Virus genome (UHGV): UHGV-0283311
Strand: one strand, 5' to 3'
Length of the DNA: 46,932 nt
Origin: a virus
A program made the translations under genes and the position numbers. A model generated the notes under the pieces. The model saw only the letters and a list, made by a program, of their open reading frames with translations. It was not told the origin of the DNA and did no database searches. Shown here piece by piece: positions 5,930 through 36,712 of this stretch. Each line of letters opens with the position of its first letter. The first letter of the stretch is position 1.

Positions 5930-8317
5930 TTAAGCAGTTCTTACCCAAGCCATTAACTTGTAGAACTGGTTAGTAACACTAAATGCCGAACCAGAACCTG
6001 TGCTACCAGTGTTACCACTAACTGTGTGGCTATGAGCACCAATACCTACAGAGTGGGAATGGTCACCAGCACCGCTTGTAGTACCAGACCACGTGTGTGT
6101 ATGGTTACCAGTTGTGTTAGTGTTAGGGAACTTGTTATCTTTTCTATCAAGCCAGTCAAGAGTTCTTGTCTTGCTGTTGCTAACAGTTGTGTAACCATAC
6201 TGAGCATCACCACCATTAACTAATAACAGACCTAAGTGGTGAGCGTGGTTGCCAGCAGCACTTGTTGTACCACTTACAGAGTGAGAATGACCACCAGTAC
6301 TGTTAGTTCCCTTCGTACCATAATCAAAAGATGAAGTGGTAGCAGAGAAGCTATGGGTATGTGATGGTAAGTTCCCAACAGCTAACGTCACAGAATCTGA
6401 ACCACCAGTTGTAGCAACATCTGAACCGTTTGCTGCTGCAATTCTGATAGTTCTACCAACACCATTATTCAGGTACGTCCAAGTTAGACCAGGCAACGCT
6501 GTGTTAGGGTCAACATTACTGTTAAACCACGTTACAATGCCTACTGGATAGATTTTATTAAGGTCTGTAGAGTCACTAATTGCTGTTGCAATTTTCTGGT
6601 CAGTTTCTACTTTAGTGTATGCACCAATATCTGAAGGGGTTGGTTTAAATGCCGTTGAATACAACTGTGCCTCTCCAACATATGCTCCATCTGACCCATA
6701 AGCGTATGTGAAGACATCAAGACCTCTAGACCCATATGTAAAAGCGATACCTCTGGCATGAGCAATACCAGCAGAATGTGCTACATGGATGGCTAAATCT
6801 TTCAGACCCTGCTCAATAGCGTTGTTTCTTACAAATCCTGAATAATCTTTGTTGAATGATGATGGGTCATCCAGTCTATTAGCTGTCCTTGTCATTAAAG
6901 ATTGGTTTAATAGTTTTGTTTTCAAGAAATATCTAGCATCTAAGTTAGAGAAATCTGAAGGTTGAACTTGACCAGTAATTCTGACATTTTTATCCAACAA
7001 GAAATCATCTTGCATATAAAGCGTAGTTGCAGTTCTGTCGTTACGGATAGTAAACCTTGTTGGGTTGGATGGTTCCCCATTACCGATGTACCACCTTCTA
7101 ACACCATCAGCATTATGACCAGCAAAGTATAGCTCTCTGTCTTGTGTAGTGTTCTTTAGCTGTAATAATGAGCCATTCAGATTGATAACCTGTACAGACC
7201 TGAAAGTGTTTACATCACTTAGTTTAGCAAGATTACTCAAAGTAGCCGCTGGAATGTATCTAGAATCAATGTTAGACCAATCAGAAGGTTGAACTTGACC
7301 AGCAACCCTAAGCTGCTTGTTAACCTCAACAAAACCATTATCAAGTCTAAGATTAGAGCCATACGTATAGTTGTGGATTAATACAGCAGGTGTATTATCA
7401 CCATTACCTACATACCACTTACCAGAGCCATCACTACTTTCACCTTTAATGTATAGTGCACCATTTGCTATAGTATTTTTTAACCTTAATGCGCCGCTAT
7501 TCGTTAAAATTGATACAGCTTGGTTAAACGTATTAACACCACTAAAAGTATTATTCGCAGCTAACTGTGCAAATCTCTGATTAGCCACTGTCTGAGTAAA
7601 GTATCTAGCATCTAAGTTAGCAAAACTTGAAGGCTGAACTTGGCCAGCAATTTGAAGAGTCCTGTTGACTGTCACCAAATTCTCTAAAATAGCAATTGAA
7701 ACGTCGGACTTTACATTCTTTAATACAAGATTATGTGTACCCCTATTATCATTACCTAGATACCATCTGTTAGTACCATCTGCATCTTGACCACGAAGAT
7801 AGAGTGGAGCACCTTGAGTGATATTTTTGATAATGAGTGCTTCATTGTCAGAGAGGATAGCTTGAGTACCTCTAAAGGTGTTATTTACAGCAAGTCTTGC
7901 ATATCTTGCATCATTCTCTTCATTAGTTCTCATACCAAGCTCATTAGGACTTGGCTTATTCAGAGTATGATAAACGGTTGCCGACCTTGAAGCATCTGCA
8001 ATAGTCAGTTTAAGGCCATTTGCGTTAATTTTAAAAGTCTTTAAAACATCCCCAATATTAATCTCAGAAGAGCCTGTTGGGTTAAATACTACCTTACCAC
8101 CATAAAGTAACTTAACAATCCCTAAGTCACCTGTCATAGTGCTACCAGCAATCTGAACAAATCTCTCAAGTTTAAAAGATGCTAAGAAGTCTTGATAGGT
8201 CATTCGACGGTCTTCATCACCTAGCATTTCAGGTCTCTTTTTAACCCTGACATGAAGAAGGTCATCTGAACGGATTGTATCGATTGAGTTTAATTCACTC
8301 AACTTGTAATCTGCCAT
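5930..8317 (-). CDS. tail fiber protein with His-rich C-terminal tip
   Basis: four internal repeats each ending in an Asn/Gly-rich block ([32 protein letters not shown]); C-terminal HxH-rich [32 protein letters not shown]; position in tail module. Confidence 0.7.
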
Positions 8318-34100: not shown

Positions 34101-34177
34101 TGGAGGCGGGTGCAGGAGTCGAACCTGCCGATACCATGCTAATGAGACATGTGAGACGCCCTTTCTCTATACCCGCA
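34101..34177 (-). tRNA. tRNA(CAT): Met, fMet or Ile2
   Basis: loop CTCATTA, D-stem gaga/tctc, 1-72 mismatch; isotype unresolved. Confidence 0.6.
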
Positions 34178-34267
34178 ATTCTTAATGACCAGACCAAATA
34201 TCTTCTTTGTCCGATTAACTTTCAGATGAGTAGATTAAGTTTGCTGTAATTGGTCTTCTGTCAAAAC

Positions 34268-34345
34268 TGGCGTTCCAGAAGGGATTTGAACCCTCAGATA
34301 TCCACTTTGAAAGAGTGGTGACTTTACCGTTTTGTCTACTGGAAC
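34268..34345 (-). tRNA. tRNA-Glu(TTC)
   Basis: perfect acceptor gttccag/ctggaac, perfect anticodon stem ccact/agtgg, loop CTTTCAA. Confidence 0.8.
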
Positions 34346-34352
34346 ATTAATT

Positions 34353-34429
34353 TGGTCTCTGTTGGAGGACTTGAACCTCCGGCCTTACCGCCCCAAACGG
34401 AACGCTCTACCAAGCTGAGCTAAACAGAG
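34353..34429 (-). tRNA. tRNA-Pro(TGG)
   Basis: perfect acceptor and T-stem, D-arm gctc-agcttggta-gagc, loop TTTGGGG. Confidence 0.75.
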
Positions 34430-34547
34430 ATAAACTTTTCAAACTCTATGTAACCACTTTAACATTATTTTTTAGTGATTGTCAAGAACTTTTTTAAAAT
34501 ATTTTTCAGTATCTTAGAAAAGCTCTCATTTCGTTTCTATGTAGAAC

Positions 34548-34576
34548 ATATTAAAGGGTATTAAACACATTGTCAA
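34548..34576 (-). promoter_or_regulatory. sigma70-like promoter reading into tRNA array
   Basis: minus-strand TTGACA (plus 34571-34576), 17-nt spacer, TAATAT (plus 34548-34553). Confidence 0.5.
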
Positions 34577-34594
34577 TACCCTTTTTAAAACTTT

Positions 34595-36010
34595 TTACCA
34601 GATATAACGGTCAATCATTACTGCTTTGAGCATTACACTGATTGGGTCAAACTTCTCACCACCAAGCAGAGCTTTTAAAGTGGCTGGAGAGAACCCTGAT
34701 ACCATTGCTACACCGTTATCCTTAACAGATACTTCGCAAGTACCATTACGGTTTGCTAAGTACCAGAATACCAGTTGTGGCATCTCATATCCAGCTTTTT
34801 TGTACTTACTCTGAATTGCTTCAAAGTTTGTACGTCCGTTAGCTCCATCAACCTGATTGAACTCCATATCGGAGAAGATGATAAGCTTACTTGGCATATC
34901 TTTCTGAGTCAAGTTGTTTCTTTTACCTGTTTCAAGAATGCGGTCAAAAGCTGCTTGTAAGTTAGTTGAGCCATATTCAACGTGTCGCATCACCTGACGA
35001 TGACGGTTTCGTAAATCACCACTCAGTTCGATGAAGTGAGGGTTTGTTGAATAAACCATCAACTCATTCTTAAAGCAACCTGTATTGCGTTCTGCTACAT
35101 ACAAGGCAAGTGATACACCAATATCCAGAGCAGTAATGGAGCCAAAATTCACCCAAGACATTGAACTTGATACATCAGACATACACAAGATGTTTTCACC
35201 TTCTGCCATCCAGTTTGGTAGTGCTTTCCACTGCTCATTAGCAACATCTGCATTACCATACTTGACAGATTTAATCACATCGTATGGGTAAACAGCACCA
35301 GCGTTAATCTTAGTCTCACCTTTTGATAAGGACTCGATGTAAGCTTTGTAACGCTCTCCATCTTTACGGTTAAACAGTTTTTGGTAACGTGCAGCAGCAA
35401 GTGAAGGAATCTTACTGTAGTCAATCTTACCAAACTCATTAGCAGAGATTTTTTGCTCAACTGTATCAGATAGTGCAGACAACAGTGTGCGGTACTCTTT
35501 CTCACTCAAGTTGGCAAACTTGCAGAAACGTTTTACAAACTGCTTATGACGTGGTTTGACTCGTGGTAACCACTTAGCCGCCAAACCTGCTGTTGCAGGG
35601 TCTAGTAATGCTGCTTCTAAATGTTTGAAGGCATCTGTCTCGAAACGAGTACCTACGAAGATTTTGAAGTCATCAAAACGACCAAGTTCTGCAATCTTAT
35701 CCATAATGCGAAGAACCTGCGTAGACTCTAAAACTTTGTCTTCAATTGCTTGAAGCAAAACAGTTCTGAAGGCTTTACGCTCACCCATACCTTCTCGTAC
35801 ATCTCGCATATGCAGTAAAATACGAACTGCAACATCAACATCCTCATGCAAAGCTTTGTAGAACAGGTCTGGTAAGATTTCTACATTGCTACGGCTTGAA
35901 CCAGCAGCTTTGTAAAAGTCTACAAGAGCAGACATTGATGAAGTATGGTTTGCAGCACCATTTTCAGTTCGACCTGCATGAAGGTGCGCATGTTTAAATA
36001 ATTCGCTCAT
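34595..36010 (-). CDS. vWA-domain protein with helical N-terminal region (possible Ro60/TROVE-like)
   Basis: 471 aa; MIDAS-like DVSSS followed by GST and IIFSDMEF in the C-terminal half; N-terminal ~260 aa helical; lies next to tRNA array. Confidence 0.45.
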   Translation of the reverse strand: MSELFKHAHLHAGRTENGAANHTSSMSALVDFYKAAGSSRSNVEILPDLFYKALHEDVDVAVRILLHMRDVREGMGERKAFRTVLLQAIEDKVLESTQVLRIMDKIAELGRFDDFKIFVGTRFETDAFKHLEAALLDPATAGLAAKWLPRVKPRHKQFVKRFCKFANLSEKEYRTLLSALSDTVEQKISANEFGKIDYSKIPSLAAARYQKLFNRKDGERYKAYIESLSKGETKINAGAVYPYDVIKSVKYGNADVANEQWKALPNWMAEGENILCMSDVSSSMSWVNFGSITALDIGVSLALYVAERNTGCFKNELMVYSTNPHFIELSGDLRNRHRQVMRHVEYGSTNLQAAFDRILETGKRNNLTQKDMPSKLIIFSDMEFNQVDGANGRTNFEAIQSKYKKAGYEMPQLVFWYLANRNGTCEVSVKDNGVAMVSGFSPATLKALLGGEKFDPISVMLKAVMIDRYIW

Positions 36011-36091
36011 ATTTTACTCTCTTCTCTCATTTGTTTGTTGATGTGACAGACTTTAGAGCAACTTTGTAGAGTCTGTCAACACCTTTTAAAA

Positions 36092-36463
36092 TTATTTTTT
36101 GAGGGTTGCAACAGCAGAGAACGTTGGTTTGTTATCTGTCTGTTGTTGACCACCATTATCAGGAGTCTTCTTAGTGTCTGCTGCAAGTGCTTTCATCTCA
36201 CCTGCTGAGTGAGTAAAGATAGTTTTACCTACCTCAATCATGCTCTTGATGGTTACGTCGTCTGTGTTTAACCCGAACTCTGCAAGCTTAGCAGCGTCCC
36301 TTGTAACAATCGCCTCAAACAACTTTGCAGCAAACTCAGCAGAATTATCAATGGTCAGTTGAGCTTTTACAAGTGAGCTTTTGTTACGAGAGCCTTTTGG
36401 TCTTCCAGATGGGTTTCCAGACTGGCCTTTTTTAAACTGGCCTTTGTTTGTTCTGTTTTTCAT
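36092..36463 (-). CDS. small basic protein (possible small terminase-like)
   Basis: N-terminal KGQFKKGQSGNPSGRPKGS basic motif, 123 aa; RBS aagagg. Confidence 0.4.
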   Translation of the reverse strand: MKNRTNKGQFKKGQSGNPSGRPKGSRNKSSLVKAQLTIDNSAEFAAKLFEAIVTRDAAKLAEFGLNTDDVTIKSMIEVGKTIFTHSAGEMKALAADTKKTPDNGGQQQTDNKPTFSAVATLKK

Positions 36464-36511
36464 TGGTATGCCTCTTATAAGACCTCTTAAAAGGCTTTTA
36501 AGATAAAAGAT

Positions 36512-36531
36512 AGATATCCAGAAAGATATCT
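36512..36531. promoter_or_regulatory. palindromic operator-like site in divergent intergenic region
   Basis: agatatc-cagaaa-gatatct, 7-bp perfect inverted repeat. Confidence 0.3.
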
Positions 36532-36712
36532 GTTTAAATAGCCTTTTTAGAGGAACCTTTTAAGTTATCTTCTAAGTATTTATAAGCCTACACCTTGTCA
36601 AGTACTTTGTCAACAACTTTTTTAACTTGCAATAGTTCTTGACTTGTTGTATGGATTACTGTACCATCTTACTTAAAGCTGTAGGTCTGCCTTGTTCTAC
36701 AAAGGAGACTTA

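What the first reader, a model, noticed from the sequence alone, without database searches (positions are those of the whole stretch)
34595..36010. vWA-domain protein with helical N-terminal region next to tRNA-like RNAs: possible Ro60-type RNP module
The 471-aa protein has a complete MIDAS-like motif set (DVSSS, then GST, then IIFSDMEF) in its C-terminal half after a ~260-aa helical region, the two-part layout of Ro60/Rsr proteins. Bacterial Ro60 orthologs are typically encoded beside tRNA-like Y RNAs, and this gene sits directly upstream of an array containing non-canonical tRNA-like elements. The assignment rests on architecture, not a search result.
Basis: partly seen in the sequence, partly recalled or inferred. 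Interest (0 to 1): 0.7.

Follow-up and report, generated by a model that had tools for sequence, protein, structure and literature searches.

The report
Phage Ro60-like protein with Y-like RNAs
This Felix O1-type phage gene encodes a very diverged copy of the ring-shaped RNA-binding protein Ro60, and the tRNA cluster just downstream holds four small RNA genes that look like its partners; the protein idea is already published for a 97%-identical orthologue, but the partner RNAs have not been pinned down before.

Summary
The 471-aa ORF (34595-36010, minus strand) is real, and so are its MIDAS motifs. The window is a Felixounavirus. The protein is 97% identical to Bas63 gp130, which a 2024 preprint called Ro60-like and showed to counter the Ppl defence.

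- 33500-33561 is the core of a YrlA-like permuted tRNA-like RNA (unit D).
- 32773-32854 is an odd tRNA, not Y-like.

I found four units (A-D, 33483-34263, minus strand). They share a closing helix plus a CAGCAA motif. The same RNA design lies within 500 nt of homologous genes, on the same strand, in 58 of 85 diverse phage loci: 100 hits versus about 6 expected. A covariance model built without Felix-type sequences finds unit D (E 1.5e-5), and covariation is strong.

RNA binding is untested, and gp130 alone rescues T7 from Ppl. Verdict: a divergent variant of the known Ro60-Y RNA kind, of moderate interest.

The parts
34595..36010 (-). Gene for a 471-aa diverged Ro60-like protein. The helical N-terminal domain (about residues 1-265) is Pfam DUF2828. 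The vWA/MIDAS C-terminal domain (274-455) is Pfam DUF7788. It is the orthologue of Bas63 gp130.
36050..36079 (-). Sigma-70-like promoter consensus match (TTGACA-18-TAAAGT) just upstream of the gene's ATG.
   Evidence: Consensus scan only; function not shown.
34456..34584 (-). Gene/array boundary: a 12-bp hairpin right after the stop codon and two promoter-like sites (34576-34548 and 34485-34456) ahead of tRNA-Pro.
   Evidence: Consensus scan and sequence reading.
34186..34263 (-). Y-like unit A (78 nt), between tRNA-Glu and tRNA-Met. Outer helix UGAC/GUCA, internal loop AGA/G, inner helix AGACCAA/UUGGUCU, then UUA-CAGCAA.
   Evidence: Folds and coordinates; motif scans.
34032..34097 (-). Y-like unit B (66 nt), between tRNA-Met and tRNA-Asn. 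It has the same closing design. The outer helix is UUGC/GCAA here and UUAC/GUAA in relatives, a compensatory change.
33628..33710 (-). Y-like unit C (83 nt), with the same closing design (outer helix GAGC/GCUC).
33483..33620 (-). Y-like unit D (138 nt), a YrlA-like RNA. From 5' to 3' it has the closing helix and CAGCAA, a variable-arm-like hairpin, a T arm (GAAGG-UUCGAUU-CCUUC), a 7-bp capped 'acceptor' hairpin, a D arm and the closing strand.
   Evidence: Fold. Structural pattern search. Covariance model R1, built from 7 non-Felix seeds, hits 33485-33616(-) at 41.6 bits, E 1.5e-5. Covariation.
29275..34429 (-). tRNA array (25 ARAGORN tRNAs) in which units A-D are embedded. Units A and B lie 3-4 nt after one tRNA and 8 nt before the next.
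32776..32854 (-). It has a 7-bp acceptor stem with G3.U70, A73 and an encoded CCA, a UCU anticodon loop, almost no D arm and a 20-nt variable insert. It lacks the closing helix and the CAGCAA motif, so it is probably not part of the Ro60-like module.
   Evidence: Rfam tRNA 31.7 bits with alignment. Not called by ARAGORN. Annotated tRNA-Arg in NC_041979 and Bas63.

Best explanation
The gene encodes a strongly diverged member of the Ro60 structural class: a ring of helical repeats closed by a vWA domain with an intact metal-binding (MIDAS) site. It belongs to the phage-wide DUF2828/DUF7788 family (PHROG 850) and is the orthologue of Bas63 gp130.

I infer that its RNA partners are four small RNAs (units A-D) encoded inside the adjacent tRNA array. 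I also infer that they are released from the array transcript by the tRNA-processing enzymes that cut the flanking tRNAs. Each unit has a terminal helix followed by a single-stranded (U)UA-CAGCAA motif. This sits in the same position as the Ro60-binding helix and CGAA-type motif of known Y RNAs. One unit (D) also carries a YrlA-type tRNA-like module.

By analogy with Ro60-Y RNA particles, the protein would bind the helix/CAGCAA end, and the variable body of each RNA would recruit or block host RNA-handling factors (PNPase is the precedent). The particle would serve phage RNA metabolism and counter-defence.

Shown here: the fold, the MIDAS conservation, the RNA family and its covariation, and the gene-RNA linkage. 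From the literature: anti-Ppl activity of the orthologue. Inferred: the protein-RNA binding, the processing route and the downstream effector.
For: Fold:
- AF2 model pLDDT 89, pTM 0.88.
- The Foldseek top 12 are all Ro60/TROVE, E 8e-9 to 3e-7.

Sequence:
- hhalign of the family against 23 TROVE-family proteins gives 90% probability, E 1.6e-6. The aligned part covers the last ring helix (VYPYDV ~ IHPF) plus the vWA domain.
- 12 of 49 relatives hit Pfam vWA_Ro60.
- The MIDAS residues are invariant.

RNA:
- Units A-D share outer helix / AGA-G loop / AGACC-GGUCU helix / CAGCAA.
- 16 permuted tRNA-like elements in loci with homologous genes are all on the gene strand. 16/16 have C[AC]GCA upstream. 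15/16 also have a perfect 7-bp closing helix, against a 1% chance expectation.
- Units within 500 nt of the gene: 100 on the gene strand, 5 on the other strand, 6.4 in shuffles; 58 of 85 loci have at least one.
- Model R1, built without Felix-type seeds, finds unit D (E 1.5e-5). All 86 hits at E<=0.1 are on the gene strand.
- Covariation: 94.9% of cells paired versus 59.7%, score 0.847 versus 0.212, with 0 of 500 shuffles reaching the observed value.
- Rfam YrlA hits the tRNA-like cores beside homologues in Lolly9, L020, L024, L039 and L040 at 35-42 bits.

Literature:
- Bas63 gp130 is Ro60-like and counters Ppl.
- A bona fide phage Ro60 binds neighbouring Y-like RNAs and host PNPase.
- The Listeria phage CKA15 protein CKA15_055, which by size and position corresponds to the List-36 homologue, lies within 2 kb downstream of three very highly transcribed unannotated regions. 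My scan finds three units just upstream of the List-36 homologue.
Against: - There is no TROVE sequence signature. Pfam gives no hit, the N-terminal profile comparison gives 0.3% probability, and sequence searches of PDB find nothing.
- Rfam YrlA does not hit unit D even at E<=10, and relatives stay below its gathering score of 69 bits.
- The canonical GNCGAA(N)G / CGAA Ro-binding motif is absent.
- Fold energies of the units are not unusual; z-scores are -1.1 to -1.5.
- gp130 expressed alone, from a plasmid or from the T7 genome, restores T7 growth on Ppl. That phenotype therefore does not need the phage-encoded RNAs.
- 27 of 85 loci have no unit within 500 nt by my pattern.
- No binding, expression or processing data exist for this phage.
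Confidence: 0.6

Rival explanations
1. RNA-independent anti-defence protein. The Ro60-like scaffold is used only for protein-protein contacts, for example the MIDAS face binding and inhibiting Ppl. The neighbouring small RNAs are unrelated to it.
For: gp130 alone rescues T7, which encodes none of these RNAs, on a Ppl host. vWA/MIDAS domains are classic protein-interaction modules, and the vWA-only structural neighbours are midasin, integrins and Ku80. The N-terminal domain has no detectable TROVE sequence similarity.
Against: Same-strand linkage of the RNA family to the gene is tight in 58 of 85 very different phages, 100 units against about 6 expected. This holds in loci without annotated tRNAs, such as Aeromonas LAh_6, and directly downstream of the gene in Lolly9, which has only one annotated tRNA 1.2 kb upstream. 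The full Ro60 ring, not only the vWA domain, is conserved. A host RNA could substitute in the T7 experiment.
Confidence: 0.2
2. The CAGCAA units are independent elements of the phage 'RNA island', for example processing punctuation of tRNA transcripts, decoys for tRNA-targeting nucleases, or regulatory sRNAs. They lie near the gene only because both reside next to tRNA arrays.
For: In this window the units sit between tRNAs, 3-8 nt from their ends. Most homologous loci also carry tRNA arrays. The tRNA-like core of unit D could serve as a decoy.
Against: Enrichment is centred on the gene itself, within +/-500 nt, rather than spread over the flanks. Units occur beside the gene where no tRNAs are annotated nearby. 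Known Ro60 genes are likewise flanked by their Y RNAs on the same strand.
Confidence: 0.15
3. A virion-associated or assembly factor, either a MoxR-type vWA co-chaperone or an injected protein, with no RNA role.
For: The Listeria phage protein CKA15_055 was detected in purified virions, with 20 peptides and 57% coverage. vWA co-chaperones occur in phages.
Against: No MoxR ATPase gene is adjacent. Bas63 gp130 behaves as a defence counter and was not reported among the essential structural genes. The best structural matches are Ro60, not MoxR-partner vWA proteins. Presence in virions is compatible with an injected RNA-binding counter-defence protein.
Confidence: 0.05

Closest known systems
Ro60/Rsr with Y RNAs (Xenopus or human Ro60; D. 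radiodurans Rsr-Yrn1-PNPase 'RYPER'; Salmonella Rsr-YrlA/YrlB)
   Same: A ring of helical repeats closed by a vWA/MIDAS domain. Partner-type small RNAs are encoded next to the gene on the same strand. One RNA has a T arm / capped acceptor / D arm module inside a closing stem, and the other units are shorter.
   Different: Pfam places it in DUF2828+DUF7788, not TROVE+vWA_Ro60. The protein is about 60-70 residues shorter. There is no N-terminal sequence similarity. The RNA motif is CAGCAA after the 5' strand instead of GNCGAA(N)G. The RNAs are embedded in a tRNA array.
Bas63 (Escherichia phage JohannRWettstein) gp130
   Same: 97% identical (458/471) and in the same position directly upstream of tRNA-Pro. 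It is published as structurally Ro60-like and as a counter of the Ppl defence.
   Different: Nothing of substance; this is the orthologue. The preprint only speculated that 'some tRNA genes are possibly Y RNAs' and did not identify units A-D.
Thermus phage phiLo phiRo60 with Yrl1/Yrl2 (PDB 9kop, 9l5y)
   Different: phiRo60 is called a TROVE domain-containing protein in its PDB entry, and its Yrls carry the CGAA motif. Sequence identity to the window protein in the structural alignments is only about 15%.
Mycobacteriophage cluster E 'Ro-like RNA binding protein' (e.g. Lolly9 gp54) with YrlA-like RNA
   Same: Same protein family, 33% identical over the full length. Three tandem units with GUGGAC..ACAGCAA...GUCCAGU lie directly downstream, and the middle one hits Rfam YrlA at 37.7 bits.
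   Different: The units form a compact tandem block after the gene and are not interleaved with tRNAs. The conserved helix is GGAC/GUCC rather than AGACC/GGUCU.
Rfam RF02553 YrlA
   Same: The order of elements is the same: closing stem, T arm, capped acceptor hairpin, D arm.
   Different: No hit on unit D at E<=10. Relatives reach 35-42 bits against a gathering score of 69, and mostly only over model positions 24-84.

Membership tests
Ro60 / TROVE family (Pfam PF05731 + PF25045) | TROVE domain recognisable by sequence profile | tested here: not met
   No PF05731 hit at E<=1 for the protein or at E<=10 for any of 49 relatives. hhalign of residues 1-245 against TROVE 1-330 gives 0.3% probability. 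No PDB sequence hit.
Ro60 / TROVE family (Pfam PF05731 + PF25045) | Ro60-type vWA domain | tested here: met
   hhalign of A1 against 23 TROVE-family proteins gives 90% probability, E 1.6e-6, over residues 235-451. 12 of 49 relatives hit PF25045 vWA_Ro60, best 1.7e-4. The window protein itself scores on the sister model DUF7788.
Ro60 / TROVE family (Pfam PF05731 + PF25045) | Overall fold: helical-repeat ring closed by the vWA domain | tested here: met
Ro60 / TROVE family (Pfam PF05731 + PF25045) | Complete MIDAS motif (DxSxS, T, D) | tested here: met
   D279, S281, S283, T349 and D381 are invariant in 49 sequences.
Ro60 / TROVE family (Pfam PF05731 + PF25045) | Binds Y RNA and misfolded RNA | not testable with these tools
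   Only genomic linkage to a Y-like RNA family was shown.
DUF2828/DUF7788 phage family (PHROG 850) | Hits to both Pfam models and to the PHROG profile over the full length | tested here: met
   PF25043 1.7e-43, PF11443 5.3e-29; phrog_850 2.2e-183 over 1-471.
YrlA-type bacterial Y RNA (Rfam RF02553), applied to unit D | Score at or above the Rfam gathering threshold (69 bits) | tested here: not met
   No hit at E<=10 on 33440-33660.
YrlA-type bacterial Y RNA (Rfam RF02553), applied to unit D | Closing stem enclosing a T arm, a capped acceptor-like hairpin and a D arm | tested here: met
   MFE fold and pattern search. Covariation in all four helices across 31 family members.
YrlA-type bacterial Y RNA (Rfam RF02553), applied to unit D | GNCGAA(N)G motif near the 5' end (presumed Ro60 contact) | tested here: not met
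   The units carry AGAAGACC...CAGCAA instead. Motif definition from PMC4201824.
YrlA-type bacterial Y RNA (Rfam RF02553), applied to unit D | Encoded within a few kb of the Ro60-type gene on the same strand | tested here: met
   Unit D lies 975 nt and unit A 332 nt downstream of the stop codon, on the same strand. The same arrangement is seen in 58 of 85 loci.
Ppl counter-defence protein (Bas63 gp130) | Orthology to the tested protein | tested here: met
   97% identity and the same synteny. The activity itself is taken from PMC11482910 and was not tested here.
Known anti-phage defence system components (PADLOC) | Profile hit | tested here: not met
   No PADLOC family at E<=0.01.

The most novel reading that the evidence does not exclude
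DUF2828-type Ro60-like proteins and the helix-CAGCAA RNAs may form a widespread phage ribonucleoprotein system that has not yet been defined. It would span phages of Proteobacteria, Firmicutes and Actinobacteria. Arrays of one to more than five small RNAs, some tRNA-like and some 50-60-nt hairpins, would be produced from tRNA-type transcripts and loaded onto a Ro60-like ring. The particle would remodel host RNA decay or repair and defeat defence systems such as Ppl. It would be a viral counterpart of Ro60-Y RNA particles with its own recognition code.
Probability: 0.4. Interest if true: 0.75.

Novelty: new variant of a known kind. Interest (0 to 1): 0.55.

Why it matters
Ro60-Y RNA particles are well studied in animals and in a few bacteria, but their role in phages is barely explored. 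This protein family is present in at least 710 sequenced phages, and one orthologue has a defence-countering phenotype of unknown mechanism. Concrete candidate RNA partners turn a vague suggestion, 'some tRNAs may be Y RNAs', into direct experiments. The candidates are four defined genes here and a searchable motif and covariance model elsewhere. The experiments are binding assays, deletions and CLIP. The result also shows that parts of phage tRNA arrays that annotation pipelines leave blank, or fill with spurious small ORFs, encode a conserved structured RNA family.

Tried and rejected
- Direct sequence routes to Ro60 all failed. These were Pfam TROVE, NCBIfam, phmmer and profile searches of PDB sequences, and N-terminal hhalign. 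I therefore do not file the protein as a TROVE-family member by sequence.
- Rfam has no family for units A-C, and YrlA does not reach unit D.
- My first motif, G[AG]C-N5-6-CAGCAA, was too narrow. It found few non-Felix loci and was replaced by a general helix + C[AC]GCA pattern.
- MAFFT misaligned the two D-arm types of the tRNA-like RNAs. I therefore built the covariance model from seven consistently aligned non-Felix seeds only.
- Thermodynamic z-scores of the units are unremarkable, so I do not use them as evidence.
- I considered 32776-32854 as a Y RNA and rejected it: it is a tRNA-type cloverleaf with a degenerate D arm and no closing helix or CAGCAA.
- PADLOC gave nothing.
- The supplement of Chen et al. 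2014 listing 22 phages with YrlA is not held, and the 2020 Annual Review is not held. I therefore cannot exclude that some mycobacteriophage units were catalogued there.
Full report
WHAT THE WINDOW IS. The region 34400-36600 is 99.5% identical to Escherichia phage fjerdesal and matches 253 phage records, almost all of them Felix O1-type phages of Escherichia, Salmonella, Shigella and Citrobacter. In those records the gene is annotated 'vWFA protein', 'RNA-binding protein' or 'hypothetical protein'. The window is therefore part of a Felixounavirus genome.

THE OBSERVATION.
- The 471-aa ORF at 34595-36010 (minus strand) exists as described.
- DVSSS (279-283), GST (347-349) and IIFSDMEF (377-384) are present.
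- The five MIDAS residues D279, S281, S283, T349 and D381 are invariant in 49 homologues down to 41% identity.
- The AlphaFold model built on that alignment is confident (pLDDT 89.0, pTM 0.88). It is helical to residue 263 and alpha/beta from 274 onwards.
- Twenty-five tRNA genes follow on the same strand between 34429 and 29275.

WHAT THE PROTEIN IS, BY SEQUENCE.
- Pfam assigns DUF2828 (N-terminal domain) and DUF7788 (C-terminal domain). There is no TROVE hit at E<=1.
- PHROGs places it in phrog_850 'RNA-binding protein' with E 2e-183.
- NCBIfam, PADLOC and sequence searches of PDB give nothing.
- The family is large and phage-wide. The protein search found 2204 hits among the 8000 candidates scored.
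- 710 phage records carry a homologue, from Escherichia, Mycobacterium, Salmonella, Vibrio, Listeria, Staphylococcus, Campylobacter, Enterococcus, Bacillus, Aeromonas and other hosts. The mycobacteriophage members are annotated 'Ro-like RNA binding protein'.
- Canonical Ro60/Rsr proteins have the Pfam pair TROVE + vWA_Ro60.
- I assembled a TROVE-family alignment from PDB-verified human and Xenopus Ro60 and D. radiodurans Rsr plus 20 bacterial relatives.
- Profile-profile comparison with the phage family gives 90% probability (E 1.6e-6), but only over residues 235-451. That segment is the last ring helix (VYPYDV against IHPF) plus the vWA domain.
- The N-terminal 245 residues show no similarity to TROVE (0.3% probability).
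- None of 49 relatives hits TROVE at E<=10, while 12 hit vWA_Ro60.

WHAT THE PROTEIN IS, BY STRUCTURE.
- Foldseek against PDB returns only Ro60/TROVE structures in its top 12 (E 8e-9 to 3e-7, alignments of 508-560 columns, TM up to 0.66). vWA-only proteins follow, five orders of magnitude weaker.
The protein therefore has the complete Ro60 architecture. Only its vWA half retains a Ro60-specific sequence signal.

PRIOR KNOWLEDGE.
- The protein is 97% identical (458/471) to Bas63 gp130, which occupies the same position directly upstream of tRNA-Pro.
[quoted passage not shown] It also reports that deleting gene 130 sensitises Bas63 to the Ppl defence.
- In that preprint, gp130 alone, from a plasmid or inserted into T7, restores T7 growth on Ppl.
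- A Listeria phage study (PMC12282133) reports an HHpred match to Rsr for CKA15_055. By its size (56.8 kDa) and its position downstream of the tRNA genes, this protein corresponds to the List-36 homologue; that equivalence is my inference.
- The study detects CKA15_055 in purified virions. It also finds three extremely highly transcribed unannotated regions within 2 kb upstream, which it proposes may be Y RNAs.
- True TROVE-type Ro60 with Y-like RNAs is established in phages. phiLo phiRo60 binds Yrl1 and Yrl2 and host PNPase. YrlA-like RNAs were reported in 22 phages. Jumbo phages carry TROVE proteins next to RNA-repair genes.

THE PARTNER RNAs (NEW HERE). Reading the minus strand of the array, I saw four spacer elements with the same ends. 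They are:
- A: 34263-34186
- B: 34097-34032
- C: 33710-33628
- D: 33620-33483

Each folds with the following features:
- a 4-bp outer helix of variable sequence (UGAC/GUCA, UUGC/GCAA, GAGC/GCUC, UUAC/GUAA);
- an asymmetric internal loop (5' AGA, 3' G);
- a conserved inner helix (AGACC-NN / NN-GGUCU; AGGCC in unit B);
- then (A/U)U(U/A)-CAGCAA.

Units A and B fill the gaps between tRNAs almost exactly, 3-4 nt after one tRNA and 8 nt before the next. Processing of the flanking tRNAs would therefore release them; this is an inference.

Unit D additionally contains a variable-arm-like hairpin, a T arm, a 7-bp capped acceptor-like hairpin and a D arm. This is the element order of Rfam YrlA. Rfam itself does not hit unit D at E<=10 and has no family for units A-C.

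COMPARATIVE TEST OF THE RNAs.
- In mycobacteriophage Lolly9 (protein 33% identical), the 380-nt gap right after the gene holds three tandem units, GUGGAC(N)..ACAGCAA ... GUCCAGU. The middle one hits Rfam YrlA at 37.7 bits.
- A structural pattern for T arm + capped hairpin + D arm used neither the closing helix nor CAGCAA. In 93 loci carrying a homologous gene, it found such elements in 16 distinct places, all on the gene strand. They include Bacillus phage Tsamsa, Enterococcus phage VRE9_1, Citrobacter phage Moogle and many metagenomic phages.
- All 16 have C[AC]GCA upstream. Fifteen have, 1-4 nt before it, a 7-mer that pairs perfectly with a segment after the D arm. The chance expectation from shuffled flanks is 1%. 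The helices differ in sequence.
- A general pattern (7-bp helix, 1-4 nt, C[AC]GCA[AGT], partner strand followed by G) was run over 85 non-Felix loci (1.1 Mb). It gives 261 hits on the gene strand, 94 on the other strand and about 82 in shuffles.
- Within 500 nt of the gene the counts are 100, 5 and 6.4, and 58 of 85 loci have at least one unit.
- The consensus is A-G-R-W-U-N-N-(U)-U-A-CAGCAA ... Y-C-Y-G. Units fall into a short class (<=70 nt, 53 of 95), a tRNA-like class (90-140 nt, 21) and longer ones (19).
- A covariance model built from seven non-Felix seeds finds the window's unit D at 41.6 bits, E 1.5e-5 in 1.16 Mb. It also finds Moogle, Tsamsa and VRE9_1, and all 86 hits at E<=0.1 lie on the gene strand.
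- On the 31 best hits, 94.9% of cells pair (59.7% in shuffles) and 235 cells carry double changes (69 in shuffles). The covariation score is 0.847 against 0.212, with 0 of 500 shuffles as high, and slid controls give 0.11-0.15.
- Two caveats apply to that count. The alignment is fitted to the model, and seven rows are the seeds.
- Rfam YrlA hits the tRNA-like cores in four metagenomic loci at 35-42 bits, below its 69-bit threshold and mostly over model positions 24-84 only. The tRNA-like module is thus YrlA-like, but the presumed protein-binding end is different.

THE OTHER CANDIDATE. 32776-32854 aligns to the tRNA model (31.7 bits). It has a normal acceptor stem, anticodon arm (UCU) and T arm. 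Only 4 nt stand in place of the D arm, and a 20-nt insert sits in the variable region. Relatives annotate it as tRNA-Arg. It has no closing helix and no CAGCAA, so I do not count it as a Y-like RNA.

HOW IT MOST LIKELY WORKS.
- Shown: the Ro60-type fold with an intact MIDAS site; a conserved, covarying RNA family; and its tight same-strand linkage to the gene across distant phages.
- From the literature: Ro60 binds the terminal helix of Y RNAs on its outer surface and threads RNA 3' ends through its hole, and Y RNAs tether PNPase. phiRo60 with its Yrl RNAs binds host PNPase and attenuates it. The orthologue gp130 counters Ppl.
- Inferred: the protein binds the helix/CAGCAA end of units A-D. 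The units are cut out of the array transcript by tRNA-processing enzymes. The variable bodies, including the tRNA-like module of D, engage host RNA-handling factors.
- Context: homologous genes sit next to RtcB and RNA ligases in Listeria phage List-36 and near Rnl2 in Aeromonas phage LAh_6. This echoes the Salmonella rsr-yrlBA-rtcBA operon and points to RNA damage and repair conflicts.
- Against a strict RNP requirement: gp130 alone suffices in T7.
- My estimates: Ro60-type fold about 0.9, partnership with units A-D about 0.6, the downstream mechanism open.

VERDICT. The added value here is threefold:
- the negative result for a TROVE sequence signature;
- the correction of the RNA candidates;
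- the definition of a conserved helix-CAGCAA RNA family as the likely partner.
This is a divergent variant of the known Ro60-Y RNA kind, of moderate interest.

Noticed in passing
window 32856-33087, minus strand: After a strong promoter-like site (TTGACA-17-TATAGT, 33087-33059) comes 'AAAUAAAU GCA AAC GAC AAU GUU UUU CUG GCA GUA GCU UGA UAG', encoding ANDNVFLAVA**. This closely resembles a tmRNA resume codon and tag (E. coli tag: ANDENYALAA, from memory). Rfam tmRNA aligns the segment with high posterior probability, but the total is only 15.4 bits (gathering score 47). The tag is conserved in Moogle with synonymous changes (GAC>GAT, TGA>TAA). The tRNA-like gene immediately downstream (32776-32854) has G3.U70 and A73, the alanine identity set used by tmRNA. 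This may be a phage mini or split tmRNA-like element.
   Followed up: partly
L091:10451 and L040:8605-9054: Other phage loci carrying the Ro60-like gene also hold tmRNA-type elements. L040 has a full tmRNA (75.4 bits). L091 has a tag-like ORF, ANDFTPARMAA, behind 'AAUAAUUUAAAU'.
   Followed up: no
L005 (Aeromonas phage LAh_6) 4987-5957: At least seven 50-60-nt helix-CAGCAA units stand in tandem directly upstream of the Ro60-like gene, with no tRNA annotated in the locus. Two of them overlap the annotated 5' end of the CDS (5875), while the protein match starts at 6001. The annotated start is therefore probably too far upstream.
   Followed up: partly
L007 (Listeria phage List-36) 5620-5884: Three units lie just upstream of the homologous gene. 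A transcriptomic study of a P100-like Listeria phage reports three extremely highly transcribed unannotated regions within 2 kb upstream of the corresponding gene, and finds the protein in purified virions. I did not check the coordinates against that phage.
   Followed up: partly
L003 (Citrobacter phage Moogle, NC_027293): The tRNA features of this RefSeq record are annotated on the strand opposite to the one on which Rfam finds them.
   Followed up: no
window 36092-36463, minus strand: A 123-aa DUF5681-type protein (phrog_4114, function unknown; N-terminus KGQSGNPSGRPKGSRNK) sits immediately upstream of the Ro60-like gene in Felix-type phages and in Moogle. An ORF of similar size holds the same position in Yersinia phage P778. 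It may be a conserved companion gene.
   Followed up: no
window 29449-30246 and 30635-31192, minus strand: Two protein genes of unknown function (phrog_2114 and phrog_2143) are embedded inside the tRNA array. The first has weak similarity to tape-measure and 'GTP-binding domain' PHROGs.
   Followed up: no
window 33389-33646, 33768-33932 and 33946-34185, plus strand; Bas63 bas63_0137, 0138 and 0142: Mechanical ORFs, and small 'hypothetical protein' CDSs annotated in relatives, lie antisense to the tRNA and Y-like RNA region. They are probably not genes.
   Followed up: no
L039:12696-12922: A group I intron (Rfam 71.5 bits, above threshold) lies in a metagenomic phage locus that carries the Ro60-like gene.
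   Followed up: no
L009 (Vibrio phage TCU-VP04-AIR2) 356-570 and 2600-2847: Two much longer units (215-248 nt) with the same GAGACA/AAGACA..ACAGCAA...UGUCUG ends lie in the tRNA region, 3-5 kb upstream of the gene. Their interiors are unexplored.
   Followed up: no
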